Positions 9,001 through 18,000 of a stretch of DNA of 64,000 nucleotides are shown here, piece after piece. Made by a program: the position numbers. Each line of letters starts with the position of its first letter. The first letter of the stretch is position 1. The DNA lies in assembly GCA_050261575.1 (NCBI GenBank), contig JBLNDL010000057.1:1-64000 (forward strand), given 5' to 3'. Origin of the DNA: Sphingomonadaceae bacterium (GTDB lineage: Bacteria > Chloroflexota > UBA6077).

Positions 9001-12000
9001 TGACACAATTCGGATGTGTCAGATTGTTCATACCCGACGAGCTACACTGCTATGAGTTCTCGCCCCGCGGCCCCGCGGGGATTGCCGACTTGCTCTCGGT
9101 CCTGAATGATACATCCTTGGGCCTTCCGCCGGCGCGGGTCAGGTACACGATCACGCTGATCGACGTCAGGGTCGGGTCCCGGTCGATCGCCTCCCTCCTG
9201 ATCTCGATCTCCCTGGTGATGCCAGCGAGGATCTCGTCAGTGCGCGACATTCAATCTCCTCGGCACTCGGATTATGTTAGTTAGCTGTGGGTATTGCACC
9301 GTGGTCCGATAGGTGCTAGACTGATTACGGTCCTGGGGTGAGAAGTCGCCTCTCACGCCGGGCAAAAGCCCGCTAGAGACCCGGATGCGGCGCACCGGCT
9401 ACGGGACCCGAAACCTGCCTACTGGGCAGGTTTTGTCGTTCCCAACTCCTTCCATTCCCGTCTCACCTGTCCCTTTTGGTAGAACTCCCGCTCCCCAGAG
9501 AGGTAGACGGTGATAATCCGATGCTCCTTACTGCACTTCTGCCCCGGTAGGCCGGCGAGACTCAGAGCAACGACCACATAGTGTTTGGGGTCTTCCGGAT
9601 CCCTCACGGCCAGCGTTTGTCTCCAGTGCCCGCTCCTTGCCAAGTCCAGGTGTCTGCGCCCGAGCTCAGGGGACTCGATTGCTCTGCGGATCAGGTGAGG
9701 CTTCTCCGCAAGCAACTTCGCACGGAGAGGGCCGTCCTTTGGGTTGTTGACGATATGAGCGACCCTCTCCTTGGTTACCATGACGCGGAGAGGCCGCAGA
9801 TGATCCCGTCCTGGCTCCCCATCGGGATACCATCCCTTTAGGTCTGGCATCTGGCCGACCTTCTGTTTTCCCGACTGCCCAACCGTGATGGACTCGACCG
9901 GCGCGCGTCGCTTGCCATGGCCCTTCTGATCGTGCTTGCCCGGGAGATGAAAGACTTTGCCTAGCGTGGTCTCGAGGAATTGTGGGTTCTGGTCAGCGTC
10001 AGGCTTCATCCCATCCATGCGTCGGCGCGTCTCCTCGAACCGGCGTCGGTAAGTCTCGAGCCGGGCCTTGAGCTCGGCTGTGTCCGACCGGACGCTAGTC
10101 GACCGCTCCCCGATGATAAAGGCCTCGGCCTCCTCAAGGTCAGACAGGAGTTCGTCGAAGAGAGCGGCCAGAGAGCCGTCACTCGCCTTCGTGGGTGCAT
10201 CCCTGTGGGGTAAAGGTTTTCCCTCCAGGATCGCTCCCTCTACCCGGTAGAGCTCCTCGAGGTCGGCGTACTGTACGGCCTCCGGCGATGTCCGGCGGAC
10301 GAAGTACTGGTCCCCCTCGTCGCGGCCGAAGTACTCCCATATGGCGCGGGGGGAGTGGCCTCTGCCAGTCGCCCAAGAGATCCGCTCGTTGTATTCGGCC
10401 GCGGCGGCCTCGCATCCCTCTACCGGCCTGAGCAGGATGGCCCCCCGGCCAGCGCCCCCGTCGCGATCCCAAACCCACAGGATTGCCGGCCGGAAGGCCC
10501 CAAGGTCGCGATCCAGCCGCTCCTCTCGCATGACCTCATAGCGCACAGGCAATCCCTCCCTCTGGCAGGTTGTGGGCGACCTCCGGATGAGATCGGATCC
10601 ACTCGGCGAAGGCCGCCAGGATCTCAGTCTGTCGAGGTTCCCAGGCGGGCTCTACCAGGACGTAGCCGACGCCGGGCACGTCGACGCGGACCTGGCCGTC
10701 GTCCAGGACCACCATGGCGACCCGATCGTGCATGTGGATCCGCTCCTCTGGCCCGGCCCACAGGAACTCCAGCCGGCCTCGAGCCTCGTCGACCTTGATC
10801 CACCAAAGGGGCCAGGGCCCGAGGGATCTCCGTCCCTCCATGACAACCGACAAGACGGCGCCGGCTTTGACCGTGCGCTCGAGTTGCTTCGTTGCCTCGC
10901 TCATCGGACGACGTCCTCCACCTGTCTGCCGTTGATCTCGGTGATGCCATGCTGCCTAAACAGATCCAGGATCTCCCGGCGGCGGCCGCCGGAGTTGATC
11001 CGGATCAGATTGTCCACCAGGGAGACGCCATTCTTGATGATCGCCTCGTTGGCCCCATGGCGCGAGGCGTTCTTCCATGCCGCGATCGTGACGTTCCGCC
11101 TCGTCTTGGTGGCGGGGTCGGAGCGGCCGTACATATCGCCGTCGTAGGATATCAGGTCCGTCCGGAGGAGCAGCCGCTGATCGAAGACCAGGTGGTAGCT
11201 GTCCCAGGCCCGCTTCGGCATGATTCGGGTGAAGAAGTAGCTGGCTCCGCCGGTCCTCATGTCGGGCTCGGGGCTCATCCCCTGGCCGGTGTACACCCCG
11301 GTTCGGATTCGCTCCTCAGTGTTGAGGGCCCAGCCGTTACCCTCCAGGACGTCCCGCAGGAACGTGTAGGTGTCGCGGCTCCAGAGGTGGTGGGCGAGGG
11401 CGTAGTCTGCCATCTCGGTCTCGAAGGTCGACCGGTCGATGTCGAACCGCTCCCAGTAGGGCCGGCCGGCTGGACCCGTTGCCGTCGCCCCGCTTGCCGG
11501 GTTCCAACCGCGGTCGAACTTGGGCTCGGGGTTGTAGCCCGGGAGATCCTCGAGTTTGTCAGCCTTCTTGAGCTTGAGCTTCTTCTTGAGGGCCTCCTTG
11601 AGGACGGTCAACTTGCCTGCGACCGTCGGCTCGGCCTCGGCCGCGGCGATCGCCGAGTTCCAGGCGGCATCCCCCTCCAGCTTCATGGCATGGGCTTGCT
11701 TGTGGAGGTAGACGAGCTCAAGGTCTGCCCGGGTGGCCAGCTTGGCCTCGACTCCCAGGCGCTTGAACTGGTCCAGGGTGTCGGCGATCTCCCGGGCCGT
11801 CCCCTGGTAACCCTCCCTGTAGATGGTAAGCCTGCCCATCTTGGAGTAGGTGTTGGCGTCCCCGTGCTGGATGTAAATCCCCGTCATGCCGCCCCCGAGA
11901 TCGAGGGTGTAGCCGGTCTCTCCGGAGAGGATCTCCTTGGCAGCGCTGGCGACGATCTCCCCGTTCTGGAGGGTGCGCTTGTACTGCCAGGGCCGCTCGC

Positions 12001-15000: not shown

Positions 15001-18000
15001 CGATGTATGGGTCGGACTCCGCCGCCCGCTTCGCCTCCGGAGGGAGGAGGTCGAGGCCCTGGCCGGCGACGTGGGCGCCCCCCAGGTAGCCGGCCCGTAG
15101 GACGTCGACCATGCGGAGGAATCGACTCTCGAGGGTCGCGTAGGGGATCGCCCCGAGGGCGGCGTCGACGTCCCGCGCTCTGATCGCCCGCACCAGGGCC
15201 CGTTCGTCCACATCGGCGAGGGCGTCCTCGAAGGAGCTGAGGATCACCCGCTCGAGGATTGGGGCGACCAGGTCGGCGACGCCGTGAATCCGCCTCCACT
15301 CGGCATCGGCCGTCGTCTCGGCAAACAGGCGCCTTGCCCGTAGAGAGGGGAGCGGAGGGCGGGTCGTCACGACTAGCATACGGGCGCCCTCCGCTCGATG
15401 TAGTAGTGCCAGTCGCCGACGTTGGCGTAGAGGACCGTCGGGTCGGCGGAACGGTCCCATCCCCTCCAACTCACGAATCCCAGGACTGTCATTCCTCGAC
15501 CTCGTCCTGGGGTAGTGTCAGCGCGGGTTTCCTCGGGCGGGCGGCACCCGAATCCTCCATGCCCAACCCTCCCTCCGGGACCGGCAGCCCGACCTTCCGG
15601 TAGATATGCTCGAAGACCTCCGGCGTGAGGGGCCCGCCGGCGGCCGCGAGGTTCTGGAGGAACTCTCCCCATACCTTCGGGTCGACGGTCTCGACGTCGC
15701 CATGGTGGAGGTACGGCGGGGCAACAGCCCATCTCATCCCGTTCAGTCGCAGTAGGGTCTTGATATGGGGGTTGACGATGGCGCCGATCCCGTCCATCCA
15801 AGCGCCGAGCGCGAAGCCGAACATCGCGGTCTTGTCGCTCGAGAGGGCGTAGGATCCCCTCCCTTCGTGTCCAAGGAGCACGAAGTCCGCGAGGAGAGCA
15901 GCGGCCATCCTCGTCTCCTTGCGGCGGATTATCCGGTCAGTGTCGAACTGACGCTGGCCCCCGGTCGAAAGGAGTTCGATCCGATACAGTGCCTTGCCGC
16001 TCTCCTGGTCGACGTCGCCCGGCATGACCAGTCCCTCTTGCTCATCCCGGCGGATGCTGGTCACCAGCTTCTGACAGTGGTCCAGGATGGCCTTCTCGTC
16101 GTCCGTGGCGTCAGGAGCTAGGAGTTCCGACGGCACGTAGATGACGGGCAGACCCGCGAGGTCGCGCTCGGCGCCGATCCCCTCGATTGTCTCCAGGTGC
16201 CGGATGAAGTACCAATCGCGGTAGCAGGACCGGAGAGCCGAGATCCCCTCAGGGTTATTCTTGCGGCTCGTCGTGCGAAACAGCATGCACTTCGAGAGGG
16301 GAACCTCTCGGCGCATGAAGTCGGGCTCGGCCTGCTGAATGAAGCCGATGGCGTGGCCCTCCTGGTCGAAGATCCACTCCTGGATTGACTCCTGAGCTCG
16401 GATCGACCAGTCCCGCCAGCCGATCAGGCCGTCGTCATAGGCCGAGTGGCGGGTCGGGTCGCCGGGGTTATCCCCGTGGCGCCACTTGTACAGTACCTCC
16501 AGCGGGGCGAAGCCGTAGATAAGCTCGGTCAGGATCTCCGAGAGCTCCTCCTTGAACGGCGTTTCCATGTCGTCGAGGCATGTTTGGACGAACTCGGCCT
16601 GGTCGACGTCGGTCTCGTGGTCCGAGCCCGGCTGGATCGACCATTCGGCTGCCCGGATCATCATCTCGATGGCGAACAGGATCCCTCCGAGCAAGGAGCT
16701 CTGTTCCGACATCTCCCGGTAGACCTGGCGACCCCGGACGCCGCGGAGCTCGGGGAGGTACTCCTCGTGGACGTAGCCACCGGACCGTTTAAGTCCGGTA
16801 GTCCCTATCGCCTGCAGGTTGATTCGAGCCATTCGGGCTTGCCTCCAATCCCGGCCGCGCGGCCGTCTGGTCTGTGTCAGGTTTACGTGTGTCGCTGTGG
16901 GTCATAGTGGGCGCCTCCAGATGCTCACCTTCGGCAGCGCAACTGGCGCCCTTGCCCTGCGCCGGCGAGTCCGACTGTGGGTGAGCTCCCGCCAGGACCA
17001 GAAGCTCGCGTCGGCCAGGTCAAGGGGCTTCGTCTTGGGAAACCGCTTGAGCGCGGCCTCGATGATGGCGTGGGTCGACCCGACCCTCCTGATGACGTGG
17101 ACGATCCGGCCGAGCTGGTAGTCCGCGAGCTGCTGGTTCTGCCGGTGGACCTTGGGGCCCTCGCCGCCGGCTTTCCGTGAGACCATAGTCGGGGGGCGTC
17201 TCCTGCCGTGGAACTCGAGGATCTCCTTGGTGTCGGGATCGCCCAGGAGGTCGCGCCAGGCCCCCTCGTAGGTGTCCTTCCAAGTGTCCCCGCCCTGGTC
17301 CGTCTCCACGACAACCTTCGATCCCCTGAACTCAGCCGCCTTGAGCAGGGCAAGCCCGATCGCCTCCCGCGGGCTCGCTCGCTCCTCCCACGAGAACAGG
17401 CGGTACACGGTGTACTCGTCGCCCGGGCCCCAACGGATCCCATCGACGTTGACCCCATGACAGTCGGACTCGTCGGTATCCGAGACGGCAGGGTCAACGG
17501 CCACGACGACCTCGTCGAGGTCGGGGAGGTCCTCCTCGCGGATGTGGCGGAACTCGATGTCGTCGTAGAGACCACCAGGGGGTGCAGCGACCTCCTGTTG
17601 AGACTCCGCTTTGAAGGCGGCTAGGCCGATCGTGTTGATGAGGCCCTCGCAGGCCTCTAGGTCCTGACCCTCCCAGGTGGGCGTGCCGGCGACGACGACC
17701 CAGATCCGGCGGCCCTCGAACTCGCGGGTCTCGTAGGCAGCGCCCTCCAGAGCCACGTAGGGGCCGGAAACGATCCGGTCCTGGAGGAAATCGGCTCGGC
17801 CGTCGACCAGTCGGGAGGCGATCGAGTCGGGATGGATCAGGTTCTGGACGAACAGGACTACCAGATCGTTTGACCCTGCGGGGAGGATCTTGGTCGTGAG
17901 GTCCCGGGTCTTCTTGGCCGTCGTCTTGGGGGAGTCGGAGCCGTCGTCGATATCGTCGACGATGATGAGGTCGGGCCGGACGTCCTCGAGCTTGATACCT

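What a model noticed while it worked through the whole genome (the two positions that open the first line are those of the whole stretch)
10901..15379. Mu-like prophage head protein MuF split by an intein and fused to a HipA/CtkA-like kinase
The MuF (gpF/SPP1 gp7-like) head-morphogenesis gene of the Mu-like prophage on C57 encodes 1,492 aa: a MuF domain interrupted inside its conserved PxHPxCRC motif by a ~320-aa intein (CLPGDARV...ITHN/C), followed by a protein-kinase-like domain of the HipA/CtkA type and ~550 aa of unknown fold. I read it as a capsid-packaged effector: after protein splicing MuF carries a Ser/Thr-kinase 'warhead' into the virion and on into the next host at injection. A kinase cargo and an intein in MuF would both be new for this family of phage-delivered polymorphic toxins.
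Evidence so far: g01955 (C57:10901-15379, -). Pfam at E<=1e-3: Phage_Mu_F 240-326 (35.6 bits, over cut), Intein_splicing 332-645 (29.9 bits, under the 35.8 cut), HipA_C 688-750 (E 4e-4, under cut). Sequence: ...PPLHPQ|CLPGDARV...GIITHN|CRCGQG..., i.e. Cys1, block A, terminal HN and +1 Cys; relatives without the insert read PxHPxCRC unbroken (consensus of call 94; P0258 and P0260 carry only PF04233, P0257 also intein/Hint families, call 93). AF2 of residues 650-1492 on a 5-row alignment: pLDDT 71, first domain 78-92; Foldseek PDB best hits are kinases: H. pylori CtkA 3akl E 5e-3 prob 1.0, bacterial Ser/Thr kinase 7wcf, actin-fragmin kinase 1cja, HipT 8ezs, HipA 4pu5. Invariant in 5 of 5: K47, H139-D140, D158- [...]
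(Added by a program. Inside this text positions count along the whole contig: contig position 1 is position 1 of the stretch shown here. "Call 12" and the like, gene names such as g00115 and contig names such as C1 are that model's own, and its searches are not shown. The text may have been shortened before it was handed on; [...] marks where a part breaks off. The agent that wrote the report below was given it as the finding of a first reader that could run no searches.)

Follow-up and report, generated by a model that had tools for sequence, protein, structure and literature searches.

The report
Phage head protein: intein, kinase, ADP-ribosyltransferase
A prophage head gene encodes a virion-anchoring domain interrupted by a self-splicing intein, whose homing nuclease is written on the opposite DNA strand, followed by a kinase-like and an ADP-ribosyltransferase-like domain that the phage probably carries into the next host; each part is common in viral sequence data, and the last module is uncharacterised.

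Summary
The ORF at 10901-15379(-) encodes 1,492 aa, and the Pfam hits match those reported. A 320-aa class-1 intein (residues 326-645) splits the MuF HPQ|CRC motif, and AF2 models residues 672-910 as an atypical kinase.

The novelty claims do not hold. MuF ("minor capsid") inteins are described in a 2025 preprint. A PHROG family spans MuF plus this intein. In 79 of 80 IMG/VR loci examined, the same intein sits at the same MuF site.

New findings:
1. The intein's homing endonuclease (two HTH motifs plus a Vsr-like nuclease domain, 298 aa) is encoded antisense at 13505-14401(+), entirely inside the intein.
2. Glu1445 is invariant in 123 of 123 sequences.
3. The kinase + middle domain + ART cassette is widespread: 1,783 protein clusters and 251 viral stretches. 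It usually follows a MuF motif and lies next to the portal gene.
4. The kinase also pairs with unrelated ARTs, for example in Mycobacterium prophage McProf gp54.

Most likely this is a head-packaged, injected two-enzyme effector of the polyvalent-protein type. Packaging, splicing and both enzyme activities are inferred, not shown. The prophage has a Mu-type head module but carries an integrase and a DnaB-type helicase.

The parts
10901..15379 (-). Whole gene, 1,492 codons plus stop: MuF / intein / kinase-like / middle domain / ART-like
   Evidence: Translation without stops. RBS GGAGGG at 15387-15392. GC3 of this frame is 0.78-0.96 outside the intein.
14405..15379 (-). N-extein: MuF (SPP1 gp7-like) head-morphogenesis domain, residues 1-325, ending ...CPTCK...PPLHPQ
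   Evidence: Pfam Phage_Mu_F 240-326, 35.6 bits, over cut-off. phrog_3517 head morphogenesis 35-317, E 9e-35.
13445..14404 (-). Class-1 intein, residues 326-645 (320 aa): Cys326, block B TPNHPILT 364-371, GHVYNLQT 624-631, His644-Asn645, +1 Cys646
   Evidence: Exact bounds. Intein_splicing 29.9 bits. Intein-containing NCBIfam models match weakly. The insert is absent from P0004 and P0011. A homologous intein occupies the same H-x-x|C site in 79 of 80 viral loci.
13505..14401 (+). Antisense-encoded homing endonuclease (P0158, 298 aa): two N-terminal HTH motifs plus a Vsr-like / PD-(D/E)xK nuclease core. Nested wholly inside the intein DNA (897 of 960 nt).
   Evidence: Pfam HTH_23 1.4e-5, HTH_11 2.9e-5, REase_MTES_1575 160-230 at E 3.6e-3. 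137 homologues at E<=1e-3, best 1.6e-91, some named very-short-patch-repair endonuclease or DUF559. PF18741 hits 17 of 44 family members. D182, E191 and H198 are invariant. Weak profile hit to 3r3p 'mobile intron protein'. Plus-frame GC3 is 0.82 at 13601-13750.
13367..13444 (-). C-extein start (CRC completing HPQCRC) and Pro-rich linker, residues 646-671
   Evidence: Sequence. Low pLDDT at model residues 1-20.
12542..13366 (-). Atypical protein-kinase-like domain (PI4KII/CtkA/actin-fragmin-kinase-like), residues ~672-946. Lys710, His788-Asp789, Asp807-Lys-Gly-Gln810.
   Evidence: AF2 pLDDT 90.2. Foldseek and VIA hits. Conservation in 150 domain sequences.
11444..12541 (-). Middle domain, residues ~947-1312: beta-sheet with an inserted helical bundle, then helices. 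No assigned family.
   Evidence: AF2 pLDDT 86.5 for residues 961-1492. Only weak CYTH/TBP/START-like matches, Z 5.3-6.8. No Pfam hit in 19 members. Conserved E958, K980, R982, D1007, K1018, H1023 and others in 68 sequences.
10904..11443 (-). C-terminal ADP-ribosyltransferase-fold domain, DarT-like, residues ~1313-1492. His1330, Arg1359, Ser1369, Asp1373, Arg1385, Asp1415, Glu1445.
   Evidence: In the VIA-align wide search the top four hits are all DarT (Z 10.2, 10.0, 9.6, 9.3; 142-154 residues aligned). The next, unrelated hit is Z 7.2. Also a Salmonella ART effector 7dn9 at Z 6.6 and Tpt1 7yw4 at Z 5.7. Conservation in 123 sequences.
15489..16832 (-). Portal protein, immediately upstream
   Evidence: phrog_113 E 2.8e-66. 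Pfam Portal_Mu E 7.6e-26.
16902..18863 (-). Large terminase subunit
   Evidence: phrog_38 E 3.7e-38.
10536..10904 (-). 122-aa ORF whose start overlaps the stop of the MuF gene. No assignment.
   Evidence: No PHROG or Pfam hit. No homologue in 80 related viral loci.
6971..8884 (-). Head maturation protease (Mu gpI-like)
   Evidence: phrog_328 E 2.2e-17. Pfam Mu-like_Pro E 9e-11.
35031..36179 (+). Tyrosine integrase at the prophage's right end
   Evidence: phrog_1 E 8.1e-73.

Best explanation
The gene encodes a MuF-anchored, multi-enzyme virion protein of the 'polyvalent protein' type, and it is interrupted by a mobile intein.

Step 1, sequence shown, activity inferred. The precursor is translated with a 320-aa class-1 intein inserted between Gln325 and Cys646, inside the conserved MuF HPxCRC motif. 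Splicing by Cys326, His644-Asn645 and Cys646 restores the motif.

Step 2, shown at sequence level. The intein is an independent selfish element. Its homing endonuclease (two HTH motifs plus a Vsr-like nuclease) is a separate gene on the opposite strand, nested inside the intein. It presumably cuts intein-free MuF alleles at the HPxCRC-coding site and so spreads the element among phages.

Step 3, inferred from family knowledge and gene position. The spliced MuF domain binds the portal or procapsid, so a few copies of the whole protein are packaged in the head and leave with the DNA at infection.

Step 4, fold and conserved residues shown, activity inferred. The 850-aa C-terminal cassette then acts in the newly infected cell. 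An atypical PI4KII/CtkA-like kinase phosphorylates a host target. A DarT-like ADP-ribosyltransferase uses NAD+ to ADP-ribosylate a host macromolecule, possibly nucleic acid given the DarT likeness. The middle domain is probably for target binding.

The intein and the cargo are unrelated modules that happen to share one gene.
For: MuF and context.
- Pfam Phage_Mu_F is over its cut-off.
- The gene order is terminase, portal, this gene, protease, scaffold, major capsid protein.

Intein.
- All class-1 nucleophiles and blocks are present.
- The insert is absent from P0004 and P0011.
- phrog_15127 matches 241-648 at E 2.6e-42.
- In the 80 best of at least 561 IMG/VR stretches encoding the endonuclease, 79 have an opposite-strand ORF spanning it. 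Each of these ORFs matches both the N- and C-terminal splicing regions, with junction H-x-x|C...HN|C.

Endonuclease.
- Pfam HTH and REase_MTES_1575 hits.
- 137 homologues.
- Invariant D182, E191 and H198.
- The ORF is intact over at least 230 aa in 73 of 80 loci.
- The intein's in-frame 'FHGDG' is the antisense of the endonuclease motif VAVEVFGG.

Kinase.
- Model pLDDT 90.2.
- PI4KIIalpha Z 15.5 (rmsd 3.8, 223 aa aligned) and CtkA Z 14.3.
- 175 Foldseek hits at E<=1e-3, and the 41 rows shown are all kinase-fold proteins.
- Lys710 149/150, Asp789 150/150, Asp807 150/150.

ART.
- Model pLDDT 86.5.
- DarT fills ranks 1-4 at Z 9.3-10.2, against 7.2 for the next, unrelated row.
- Glu1445 123/123 and His1330 110/123.
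- hhalign places Glu1445 on the DarT 'AEF' glutamate and, in the extended alignment, His1330 on the DarT N-terminal 'YHI'.

Effector reading.
- The cassette gives 1,783 clusters at E<=1e-3.
- 251 of 253 IMG/VR stretches encode a relative.
- 56 of the best 80 viral ORFs carry HxxCRC upstream in the same ORF.
- The gene upstream is a portal in 15 of 18 loci tested.
- One relative fuses portal, MuF, ART-PolyVal and the cassette. Another joins the kinase to a WXG100 secretion domain and three exotoxin-type ARTs.
- McProf gp54 combines a minor capsid domain, this kinase (32% identity, E 6e-36) and ADPrib_exo_Tox.
- The literature treats MuF fusions as head-packaged effectors (PMC5512222 and PMC3482391 passages).
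Against: - Nothing is experimental. Splicing, endonuclease cleavage, packaging, injection, kinase activity and ART activity are all inferred.
- The curated thresholds are missed for the intein (29.9 vs 35.8 bits; TIGR01445 20.3 vs 24.5; TIGR01443 14.6 vs 15.6) and for HipA_C (20.5 vs 30.5).
- The ART assignment rests on one structural aligner and one model.
  - Foldseek against PDB found nothing at E<=1e-3 for the same model.
  - Pfam DarT (PF14487) does not match the genome, window included, at E<=1e-3.
  - No Pfam family matched the mid/C-terminal region in 19 members.
  - hhalign against 12 DarT sequences gives only 5% probability (P 0.0075, against 0.027-0.096 for three unrelated controls).
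- In this protein the kinase position Asp+5 is Ala794. The family has Asn in 86 and Gln in 45 of 150 sequences. An Asn sits at Asp+2 instead. The active site is therefore non-canonical.
- No target, partner or immunity gene was identified.
- An open antisense frame is not evidence of a gene here. The same antisense frame is open for 863 codons opposite the cargo (10892-13483) through GC bias alone. The endonuclease call rests on homology and domains.
Confidence: 0.62

Rival explanations
1. The cargo is a MuF polymorphic toxin used in competition between bacteria, as proposed for temperate-phage MuF toxins. The kinase-ART cassette kills or arrests cells that lack immunity, and the small ORF overlapping the stop codon (10536-10904) is the cognate immunity gene.
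For: - MuF N-terminus plus C-terminal enzymatic domains is the defining layout of that family (PMC5576092 abstract and passages; PMC3482391).
- The kinase domain also occurs in a WXG100-headed protein with three exotoxin-type ARTs, a typical secreted-toxin layout.
- DarT is a growth-arresting toxin in its own system (passage).
- The 122-aa downstream ORF is translationally coupled and has no homologue in 80 related loci, as variable immunity genes often do.
Against: - The C-terminal 850 aa are not polymorphic. They are conserved as one unit across 1,783 clusters, and 128 of 156 proteins carry kinase and ART together.
- The downstream ORF has no recognisable immunity or antitoxin domain such as a macrodomain.
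- In other phages the following ORF is an unrelated ~190-aa protein with no PHROG hit.
- The paper's main text mentions no kinase (0 occurrences).
Confidence: 0.2
2. The cassette works on the phage's own side, not on the host. For example, it modifies or protects the ends of the packaged or ejected phage DNA, or it phosphorylates head proteins during assembly.
For: - DarT-type enzymes act on DNA (passage).
- MuF-family proteins sit at the portal next to the DNA end, and a paper title reports an ejection protein that binds genome ends (PMC7290940, listing only).
- The cassette is linked to the portal gene in 15 of 18 loci tested, and in one relative it is fused to a portal.
Against: - No DNA-binding domain was recognised in the cassette.
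- The same kinase appears in a WXG100-type secreted protein that has no virion context.
- Portal linkage follows from the MuF anchor alone.
Confidence: 0.1
3. The kinase-like and ART-like domains are catalytically inert. They serve as bulky internal head or scaffold-like protein, and the intein is a decaying remnant.
For: - Asp+5 is Ala in this protein.
- No curated family threshold is met for the kinase or the ART.
- Phage Mu's own MuF C-terminal domain was predicted to be an inactive enzyme fold (PMC5512222 passage).
Against: - The catalytic positions are conserved across distant relatives: Lys710 149/150, Asp789 and Asp807 150/150, Glu1445 123/123.
- All intein nucleophiles are intact and the endonuclease ORF is uninterrupted.
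- The family retains the kinase and ART domains down to ~28% identity.
Confidence: 0.06

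Closest known systems
Inteins with antisense Vsr-like homing endonucleases in actinobacteriophage minor capsid proteins (preprint 10.1101/2025.01.02.630785; passages read)
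   Same: - The host protein class is the same: minor capsid protein IPR006528. That this entry equals the MuF/gp7 domain is recalled, not tested.
- It is a full intein whose in-frame middle part has no recognisable fold.
- The endonuclease is a separate ORF on the opposite strand. Its Vsr-like core lies at roughly residues 144-267 there and 160-230 here.
- Both give a weak link to PDB 3r3p.
   Different: - This case is in a prophage of a 65% GC bacterium, not a PhagesDB isolate.
- The MuF gene here also carries an 850-aa enzymatic cargo.
- My viral-contig survey shows the element at one fixed site (H-x-x|C of HPxCRC) in 79 of 80 loci, which is a far wider spread than the preprint's handful.
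- I could not see the preprint's supplementary tables, so I cannot say whether its insertion site is the same.
Polyvalent proteins and MuF-fused effectors of phages (Iyer et al. 2017, PMC5512222; Zhang et al. 2012, PMC3482391; passages read)
   Same: - Several unrelated enzymatic domains lie in one polypeptide.
- The polypeptide is anchored by MuF and encoded among head genes.
- It is predicted to be packaged and injected.
- ARTs and protein-kinase-superfamily domains are named components. Their kinase clade is said to have a conserved Gln in the last N-lobe strand, and Gln749 here is 143/150.
   Different: [quoted passage not shown] Here the ART is DarT-like with an invariant Glu, and no Pfam ART-PolyVal hit was reported for this protein (E<=1).
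- Their kinase is described mainly from Verrucomicrobia-Chlamydia and Bacteroidetes. Whether it is the same clade could not be tested, because their alignments are on an FTP site.
- The word 'intein' does not occur in that paper.
Mycobacterium prophage McProf gp54 and relatives, annotated 'minor capsid and ADP-ribosyltransferase domain fusion protein' (BK061309.1)
   Same: - The gene sits directly after the portal gene.
- It has a minor-capsid N-terminus.
- The same kinase-like domain is present (32% identity over 271 columns, E 6e-36).
- An ART lies at the C-terminus.
   Different: - The N-terminal domain is Pfam VG15, not Phage_Mu_F.
- The ART is the R-S-E exotoxin type (ADPrib_exo_Tox 1007-1176), not DarT-like.
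- There is no intein.
- The middle domain is not shared.
- The kinase domain is not annotated in the record.
DarT of DarTG toxin-antitoxin systems (PDB 7omu, 8baq, 7omv, 7yk3; Pfam PF14487)
   Same: - Best structural match of residues ~1313-1492: Z 9.3-10.2, rmsd 3.2-3.8, 142-154 residues aligned.
- An invariant Glu lies in a strand near the C-terminus, and a His lies in the first strand.
   Different: - There is no sequence-level membership: PF14487 gives no hit and hhalign probability is 5%.
- The domain is fused to a virion protein rather than free-standing with a DarG antitoxin.
- The substrate is unknown.
Atypical kinases PI4KIIalpha, H. pylori CtkA, Physarum actin-fragmin kinase; more distantly HipA/HipT
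   Same: - Shared fold and order of catalytic elements: beta3 Lys, catalytic-loop Asp, metal-binding Asp, and a helical C-lobe in place of the canonical one.
   Different: - Sequence identity is 12-17%.
- Pfam HipA_C covers only profile positions 1-70 of 213, below cut-off.
- Asp+5 is Ala in this protein.
- The domain is embedded in a phage head protein.
Pseudanabaena phage Pan1 gp15 'head morphogenesis protein' (ON968452.1)
   Same: - An isolated phage with a MuF domain (Pfam 36.7 bits) followed by the same C-terminal ART-like domain and part of the middle domain (26% identity over 307 columns, E 3e-21).
   Different: - No kinase domain and no intein.

Membership tests
MuF / SPP1 gp7 head-morphogenesis domain (PF04233) | Profile match above the curated cut-off | tested here: met
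   35.6 bits against a 29.6 cut-off, residues 240-326. The six-frame genome search also finds it, at 39.6 bits.
MuF / SPP1 gp7 head-morphogenesis domain (PF04233) | Gene lies next to the portal gene in the head module | tested here: met
   The portal is at 15489-16832, directly upstream. The same arrangement holds in 15 of 18 related viral loci tested.
MuF / SPP1 gp7 head-morphogenesis domain (PF04233) | Conserved CxxC ... HPxCRC motif | tested here: met
   CPTC is at 292-295. HPQ|CRC is restored once residues 326-645 are removed.
Class-1 intein | Cys/Ser1, block B TxxH, terminal His-Asn, +1 Cys/Ser/Thr | tested here: met
   Cys326, TPNH at 364-367, His644-Asn645, Cys646.
Class-1 intein | Insert is absent from orthologues, which read through the site | tested here: met
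   P0004 (61-63% identical in the cargo) and P0011 read HPQCRC / HPRCRC unbroken.
Class-1 intein | Curated profile thresholds (Pfam Intein_splicing, TIGR01445, TIGR01443) | tested here: not met
   29.9 vs 35.8 bits; 20.3 vs 24.5; 14.6 vs 15.6. The profiles are split by the ~175-aa antisense-endonuclease region.
Class-1 intein | Protein splicing occurs | not testable with these tools
   Needs expression and mass or gel analysis.
Intein with antisense Vsr-like homing endonuclease (preprint 10.1101/2025.01.02.630785) | Endonuclease ORF on the opposite strand, inside the intein | tested here: met
   13505-14401(+) lies within 13445-14404(-). The same nesting occurs in 79 of 80 viral loci.
Intein with antisense Vsr-like homing endonuclease (preprint 10.1101/2025.01.02.630785) | Vsr-like / PD-(D/E)xK nuclease core | tested here: inconclusive
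   P0158 itself matches REase_MTES_1575 at E 3.6e-3, below cut-off. 17 of 44 family members match at E<=1e-3, best 5.4e-7. Some sources name homologues very-short-patch-repair endonuclease.
Protein-kinase-like superfamily, PI3/4K-CtkA-AFK group | Kinase fold | tested here: met
   Z 15.5 to PI4KIIalpha and 14.3 to CtkA. 175 Foldseek hits at E<=1e-3.
Protein-kinase-like superfamily, PI3/4K-CtkA-AFK group | ATP-binding Lys, catalytic Asp, metal-binding Asp | tested here: met
   Lys710 149/150; Asp789 150/150; Asp807 150/150.
Protein-kinase-like superfamily, PI3/4K-CtkA-AFK group | Asn/Gln at catalytic Asp+5 | tested here: not met
   Ala794 here. The family has Asn in 86, Gln in 45 and Ala in 17 of 150. 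This protein has Asn791 at Asp+2.
HipA family (PF07804) | Profile match above cut-off over the catalytic domain | tested here: not met
   20.5 bits against 30.5, covering profile positions 1-70 of 213 only. The structural Z of 11.3 is lower than for PI4KII or CtkA.
DarT (PF14487) | Sequence profile match | tested here: not met
   No PF14487 match in the six-frame search of the genome at E<=1e-3. The control genomes did not ring either, but 54 of 401 genomes of the phylum did. hhalign against 12 DarT sequences gives probability 5.2%.
DarT (PF14487) | ART fold of the DarT type | tested here: met
   The top four of 48,161 chains are DarT at Z 9.3-10.2, and the next row is 7.2. Caveat: Foldseek against PDB found none.
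DarT (PF14487) | Catalytic Glu and NAD+-binding His | tested here: inconclusive
   Glu1445 is 123/123 and His1330 is 110/123. They align with the DarT 'AEF' and 'YHI' motifs only in a low-confidence hhalign.
DarT (PF14487) | Adjacent DarG (macrodomain) antitoxin | tested here: inconclusive
   The two downstream ORFs have no Pfam or PHROG domain. No dedicated macrodomain search was run.
MuF polymorphic toxins (Jamet et al. 2017) | MuF N-terminus with a variable C-terminal toxic domain and a cognate immunity gene | tested here: inconclusive
   The MuF N-terminus is present. The C-terminus is a conserved cassette rather than a variable tip. No immunity gene was recognised.
Polyvalent proteins (Iyer et al. 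2017) | Two or more unrelated enzymatic domains in one polypeptide, encoded among virion or transfer genes | tested here: met
   A kinase fold and an ART fold follow MuF, within the head module. The relative P0068 adds a portal domain and ART-PolyVal.
Mu-like (transposable) prophage | Mu-type head module (portal gp29, F, protease I) | tested here: met
   Portal_Mu E 7.6e-26 and Mu-like_Pro E 9e-11. Also a Mu Gam-like protein at 30030-30632.
Mu-like (transposable) prophage | Replicative transposition genes (MuA/MuB) instead of an integrase | tested here: not met
   Among the 37 ORFs scanned, none matched a transposase. The scan found a tyrosine integrase, a DnaB-like helicase and a replication initiator. 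The left end of the prophage is cut by the contig start.

The most novel reading that the evidence does not exclude
The kinase + middle domain + DarT-like ART cassette is an undescribed, very widespread family of phage virion effectors in which the two enzymes work as a coupled pair.

The kinase recurs next to an ART of two unrelated classes. It pairs with the DarT-like ART in 128 of 156 proteins. It pairs with the exotoxin type in P0008, P0147, P0154 and McProf gp54. This suggests a shared target or a two-step chemistry on injection. One possibility is ADP-ribosylation of host nucleic acid or of a defence protein that is primed, locked in or regulated by phosphorylation.

If the ART is DNA- or RNA-directed like DarT, this would be a virion-delivered nucleic-acid ADP-ribosyltransferase, the mirror image of the DarTG anti-phage defence.
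Probability: 0.3. Interest if true: 0.75.

Novelty: new variant of a known kind. Interest (0 to 1): 0.5.

Why it matters
MuF-fused enzymes are the best natural examples of proteins that phages carry in the capsid and inject with their DNA, and few have been tested.

**The cassette.** It is abundant: 1,783 protein clusters at 50% identity and 251 IMG/VR stretches. Its last 550 aa have no Pfam model, and database annotation misses the kinase even in named Mycobacterium prophages. Recognising a DarT-like ART beside a conserved atypical kinase gives a concrete, testable hypothesis for a large block of viral "dark matter". It also raises the possibility that phages deliver the same chemistry that bacteria use against them in DarTG.

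**The intein.** It shows how common the intein-plus-antisense-endonuclease architecture is. It is a clean example of a fully dual-coding mobile element aimed at one conserved motif. That makes it useful both for annotation, where gene callers will mis-call either strand, and as a source of a site-specific nuclease and splicing pair.

The claims that made the original finding look exceptional do not hold. An intein in MuF is not new, and a kinase cargo is not new.

Tried and rejected
- **Middle domain as a CYTH / triphosphate-tunnel enzyme.** Several CYTH chains appear (2fjt Z 6.8, 2dc4 6.5, 2een 5.9, 3bhd 5.8, 5a61 5.5, 6l7v 5.3). These values are within the tool's stated noise, and TBP and START folds score alike. 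The 68-sequence alignment lacks the dense charged-residue pattern of a tunnel. Left unassigned.
- **Sequence routes to the C-terminal domains.** All were uninformative.
  - Pfam on 19 members.
  - A PDB profile search (a de novo protein at E 0.012).
  - Foldseek against PDB (best E 0.01, DnaK models).
- **Foldseek against BFVD**. No hit at E<=1e-3. The top rows, at prob 0.97-1.0, are uncharacterised giant-virus proteins and baculovirus ORF30/ORF32. This may tie in with the DarT-related 'ORF28 family' mentioned in PMC9503650. The aligned region is not reported, so it is only a lead.
- **ESM Atlas**. Unnamed clusters scored 0.91-0.93, and an OspC-family cluster scored 0.89. A lead only.
- **hhalign of the C-terminal domain against DarT.** Weak.
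- **Downstream ORFs as immunity or conserved partners.** No domain was found and no homologue in 80 related loci.
- **Single-sequence search of viral contigs with the endonuclease.** It found nothing. The 44-sequence alignment then found at least 561 stretches.
- **Openness of the antisense frame as evidence for the endonuclease.** Rejected. The same frame is open for 863 codons opposite the cargo purely through GC bias.
- **Literature searches for a MuF intein, MuF kinase or MuF DarT**. They returned the papers cited and nothing describing this cassette. Subscription journals and the FTP and bioRxiv supplements were not visible.

Full report
**1. What is in the sequence**

The minus-strand ORF at 10901-15379 translates to 1,492 residues without a stop. 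Its ATG has a GGAGGG box 7 nt upstream. A longer TTG start at 15469 exists.

NCBIfam adds only weak hits to intein-containing models and to the intein N- and C-terminal models, all under their cut-offs.

PHROGs is more telling. phrog_15127 'head protein' matches residues 241-648 at E 2.6e-42, so a catalogued phage family already spans MuF plus this insert.

**2. Context**

The genes on the minus strand from position 1 to about 31 kb form a prophage. They include a tape-measure fragment, tail chaperone, major tail protein, major capsid protein (5494-6471), scaffold and protease (6971-8884). Two unassigned ORFs follow, then this gene, the portal (15489-16832) and large terminase (16902-18863). 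Further along are a ParB-methyltransferase, an HNH/endonuclease VII protein, a DnaB-like helicase, a replication initiator and a Mu Gam-like protein. On the plus strand are repressor-like regulators and a tyrosine integrase (35031-36179).

The portal and protease are of the Mu type: Portal_Mu E 7.6e-26 and Mu-like_Pro E 9e-11. The head module is therefore Mu-like. The element integrates with an integrase and carries a DnaB-type helicase and a replication initiator. None of the 37 ORFs scanned matched a transposase. The contig begins inside the tail genes, so the prophage is cut at its left end.

**3. The intein**

Read directly, the sequence is ...PPLHPQ | CLPGDARV ... GIITHN | CRCGQG... The exact bounds are Cys326 to Asn645 (320 aa), with block B TPNHPILT at 364-371, GHVYNLQT at 624-631, His644-Asn645, and Cys646 at +1. 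Two relatives of the same protein, P0004 and P0011, read HPQCRC and HPRCRC unbroken. All features of a class-1 intein are present, although no curated profile threshold is reached.

Other relatives carry inteins elsewhere in MuF.
- P0039 has one at the same site.
- P0003 (58% identical in the cargo) has a different intein at DDRL|CPIC, the first CxxC.
- P0012 has a homologue of this window's intein at ARTE|T, ending in Gly-Asn.

**4. The endonuclease is on the other strand**

A preprint on actinobacteriophage inteins reports inteins in minor capsid proteins and says these have only non-canonical endonucleases, including antisense ones. That prompted me to scan the other frames.

The plus-strand ORF at 13505-14401 (P0158, 298 aa) lies wholly inside the intein DNA at 13445-14404. 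It has two HTH motifs (HTH_23 1.4e-5, HTH_11 2.9e-5) and a weak REase_MTES_1575 match at residues 160-230.

Evidence that it is a real protein family:
- It has 137 homologues at E<=1e-3, the best at 1.6e-91 and 54% identity. Some sources call them very-short-patch-repair endonuclease or DUF559.
- In a 44-sequence alignment, D182, E191 and H198 are invariant.
- 17 of 44 members match PF18741 and 26 of 44 match a resolvase-type HTH.
- The family profile touches PDB 3r3p 'mobile intron protein' weakly, at E 0.67. That is the structure the preprint links to its Vsr-like endonuclease.

The intein's only conserved in-frame motif in its middle part, FHGDG (435-439), is the reverse complement of the endonuclease's VAVEVFGG. 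GC3 of the gene's own frame falls from 0.78-0.96 in the exteins to 0.6-0.74 inside the intein. The plus-frame GC3 rises to 0.82 at 13601-13750.

An open antisense frame is not in itself evidence. The same frame is open for 863 codons opposite the cargo (10892-13483), where GC3 clearly favours the minus frame.

**5. How common the element is**

In the best 80 loci:
- 79 have an ORF on the opposite strand that spans the endonuclease and matches both the N- and C-terminal splicing regions of this intein.
- The junctions read H-x-x | C[LFV]PGD ... HN | C[R/E/D]C, which is the MuF motif.
- The endonuclease ORF is intact over at least 230 residues in 73 of 80.
- None of the 80 carries the kinase cassette.

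So this is a widespread mobile element that homes to the HPxCRC-coding site of MuF genes. Its presence in a cargo-bearing MuF is incidental. The genome holds one copy of the endonuclease and one MuF gene.

**6. The kinase-like domain**

AF2 on a 24-row alignment of residues 647-960 gave pLDDT 90.2 and pTM 0.79.

| Search | Result |
|---|---|
| Foldseek vs PDB | 175 hits at E<=1e-3; actin-fragmin kinase 1cja 1.6e-5, CtkA 3akl 2.1e-5, Vps34, PI4KIIalpha |
| VIA-align wide | PI4KIIalpha Z 15.5 (rmsd 3.8, 223 aa), CtkA 14.3, Fam20 12.7, AFK 11.8, 7wcf 11.8, HipA 11.3, HipT 10.0 |

Conservation in 150 domain sequences is Lys710 149, Gln749 143, His788 136, Asp789 150, Asp807 150 and Gln810 148. Position Asp+5 is Asn in 86, Gln in 45 and Ala in 17. 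This protein has Ala794, with Asn791 at Asp+2. The fold and core residues argue for an active atypical kinase, closest to the PI4KII/CtkA/AFK group rather than to HipA.

**7. The last 550 residues**

AF2 on residues 961-1492 with 18 short relatives gave pLDDT 86.5 and pTM 0.70. Foldseek against PDB found nothing at E<=1e-3.

The Foldseek-independent VIA-align search of 48,161 chains placed four DarT structures on top, all over model residues ~353-532, which is protein ~1313-1492:
- 7omu: Z 10.2, rmsd 3.2, 142 aa
- 8baq: Z 10.0
- 7omv: Z 9.6
- 7yk3: Z 9.3

The next, unrelated row is at Z 7.2. A Salmonella ART effector (7dn9, Z 6.6) and Tpt1 (7yw4, Z 5.7) also appear.

In 123 aligned domain sequences, Asp1373, Gly1377 and Glu1445 are invariant. 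Ser1369, Asp1415 and Gly1418 are 122/123, Arg1359 is 120, Arg1385 is 119 and His1330 is 110.

Sequence-level tests are weak.
- Pfam DarT does not match the genome.
- hhalign of the 123-sequence alignment against 12 DarT sequences taken from other genomes gives 5% probability and P 0.0075. Three unrelated control alignments give 0.027-0.096.
- The alignment does put Glu1445 on the DarT 'AEF' Glu and, when extended, His1330 on the DarT 'YHI'.

I therefore call this an ART fold of the DarT type, not a DarT family member. The middle domain (~947-1312) is a beta-sheet with an inserted helical bundle. Its CYTH/TBP/START-like matches (Z 5.3-6.8) are within noise.

**8. The cassette as a family**

A full HMMER scan with residues 647-1492 found 1,783 representatives at E<=1e-3, 1,277 at 1e-10 and 285 at 1e-30.

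Among the 156 proteins in hand (P0002-P0157, the window's own included):
- 141 have the kinase, 143 the C-terminal domain and 128 both.
- 61 of the 155 others contain an HxxCRC-like motif.

In IMG/VR, 251 of 253 stretches encode a relative. In the best 80:
- 75 have the kinase, 77 the middle domain and 80 the C-terminal domain.
- 56 have HxxCRC in the same ORF.
- None has this intein.

The ORF just upstream is a portal in 15 of 18 loci tested. In one it is a separate MuF gene, and two were unassigned.

Larger relatives show the polyvalent character. P0068 combines portal, MuF, ART-PolyVal and the cassette. P0154 combines a WXG100-like head, three exotoxin-type ARTs and two copies of the kinase. 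P0008 and P0147 pair the kinase with exotoxin-type ARTs.

Among isolated phages, 13 records match.
- Twelve are Mycobacterium phages or prophages. McProf gp54 is annotated 'minor capsid and ADP-ribosyltransferase domain fusion protein'. It contains VG15, this kinase (32% identity, E 6e-36) and ADPrib_exo_Tox, and sits right after the portal.
- Pseudanabaena phage Pan1 gp15 combines MuF with the DarT-like domain and has no kinase.

**9. Mechanism**

The best-supported reading is a head-packaged, injected two-enzyme effector. MuF provides the capsid address, as for SPP1 gp7 and the MuF fusions discussed in PMC5512222 and PMC3482391. The intein must splice to rebuild the MuF motif. The kinase and ART then act in the next host.

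| Level of support | Items |
|---|---|
| Shown | Architecture, folds, conserved residues, gene context, breadth of the family |
| Inferred | Splicing, homing, packaging, both enzyme activities, the targets |

The recurrent pairing of this kinase with ARTs of two unrelated classes hints at cooperation between the two activities.

The rivals are listed with their tests in the rival explanations:
- a MuF polymorphic toxin with the 122-aa downstream ORF as immunity;
- a role on the phage's own DNA or head;
- inert domains.

**10. Novelty**

Neither an intein in MuF nor a kinase on a phage virion protein is new. Inteins in minor capsid proteins are in the preprint, and phrog_15127 already spans MuF plus the insert. 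Kinases in polyvalent proteins and zeta-type kinases on MuF are in PMC5512222.

I found no description of a PI4KII/CtkA-like kinase joined to a DarT-like ART behind MuF in six literature searches. PMC9503650 lists MuF-fused ARTs as Alt/VIP2 and N4-ART types. Jamet et al. mention neither a kinase nor an intein in the main text.

The library lacks most subscription papers. The FTP and preprint supplements were not visible, so the cassette may be tabulated there. I rate this a new variant of a known kind, of moderate interest.

Noticed in passing
P0003, P0012, P0039 (relatives): Relatives of this MuF-cargo protein carry inteins at three different MuF sites: HPx|CRC (this window and P0039), DDRL|CPxC (P0003, an unrelated intein), and ARTE|T (P0012). 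P0012's intein is clearly homologous to this window's but ends in Gly-Asn with Thr at +1. That suggests ectopic movement of one intein within the same gene family.
   Followed up: partly
window 10892-13483 (+): An 863-codon ORF lies antisense to the kinase/ART cargo. It is a GC-bias shadow: its third-position GC is 0.52-0.72, against 0.82-0.96 for the minus frame. It is in the same antisense frame as the real endonuclease ORF, so gene callers could mis-call either.
   Followed up: partly
window 6971-8884 (-): The head protease ORF is 637 aa. The protease match covers only residues ~292-571. The N-terminal 4-87 matches a different PHROG of unknown function (phrog_19463, E 1e-18). This may be a fusion or a mis-joined pair of genes.
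   Followed up: no
window 26354-27445 (-): The replication-initiator ORF matches both 'replication initiation protein' PHROGs and an 'HNH endonuclease' PHROG (phrog_15463, residues 17-209). GC drops to 0.60 at 26-28 kb. This may be another inserted or mosaic element.
   Followed up: no
window 18574-20612 (-): Overlapping long ORFs lie upstream of the large terminase: one with a small-terminase match (residues 272-388 of a 494-aa ORF) and a ParB-like/DNA methyltransferase fusion (19302-20612). The gene boundaries here are unclear.
   Followed up: no
L033:4206-5135 and the cassette ORF L033:5024-8596: In one viral contig the MuF domain is a separate ORF directly upstream of, and overlapping, the kinase-ART cassette ORF. 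This could be a split form, a frameshift or programmed frameshifting.
   Followed up: no
L177 (Mycobacterium phage McProf gp54, BK061309.1 30755-34312): The GenBank annotation names only the minor capsid and ART parts. Residues ~461-727 are an unannotated kinase-like domain homologous to the one here (E 6e-36). Eleven other Mycobacterium phage records also match the kinase region: four annotated as minor capsid-ART fusions, four as ADP-ribosyltransferase and three as hypothetical proteins.
   Followed up: partly
window 32000-36000: GC falls to 0.59-0.60 around the repressor / metalloprotease-like / integrase end of the prophage, against ~0.65 elsewhere.
   Followed up: no
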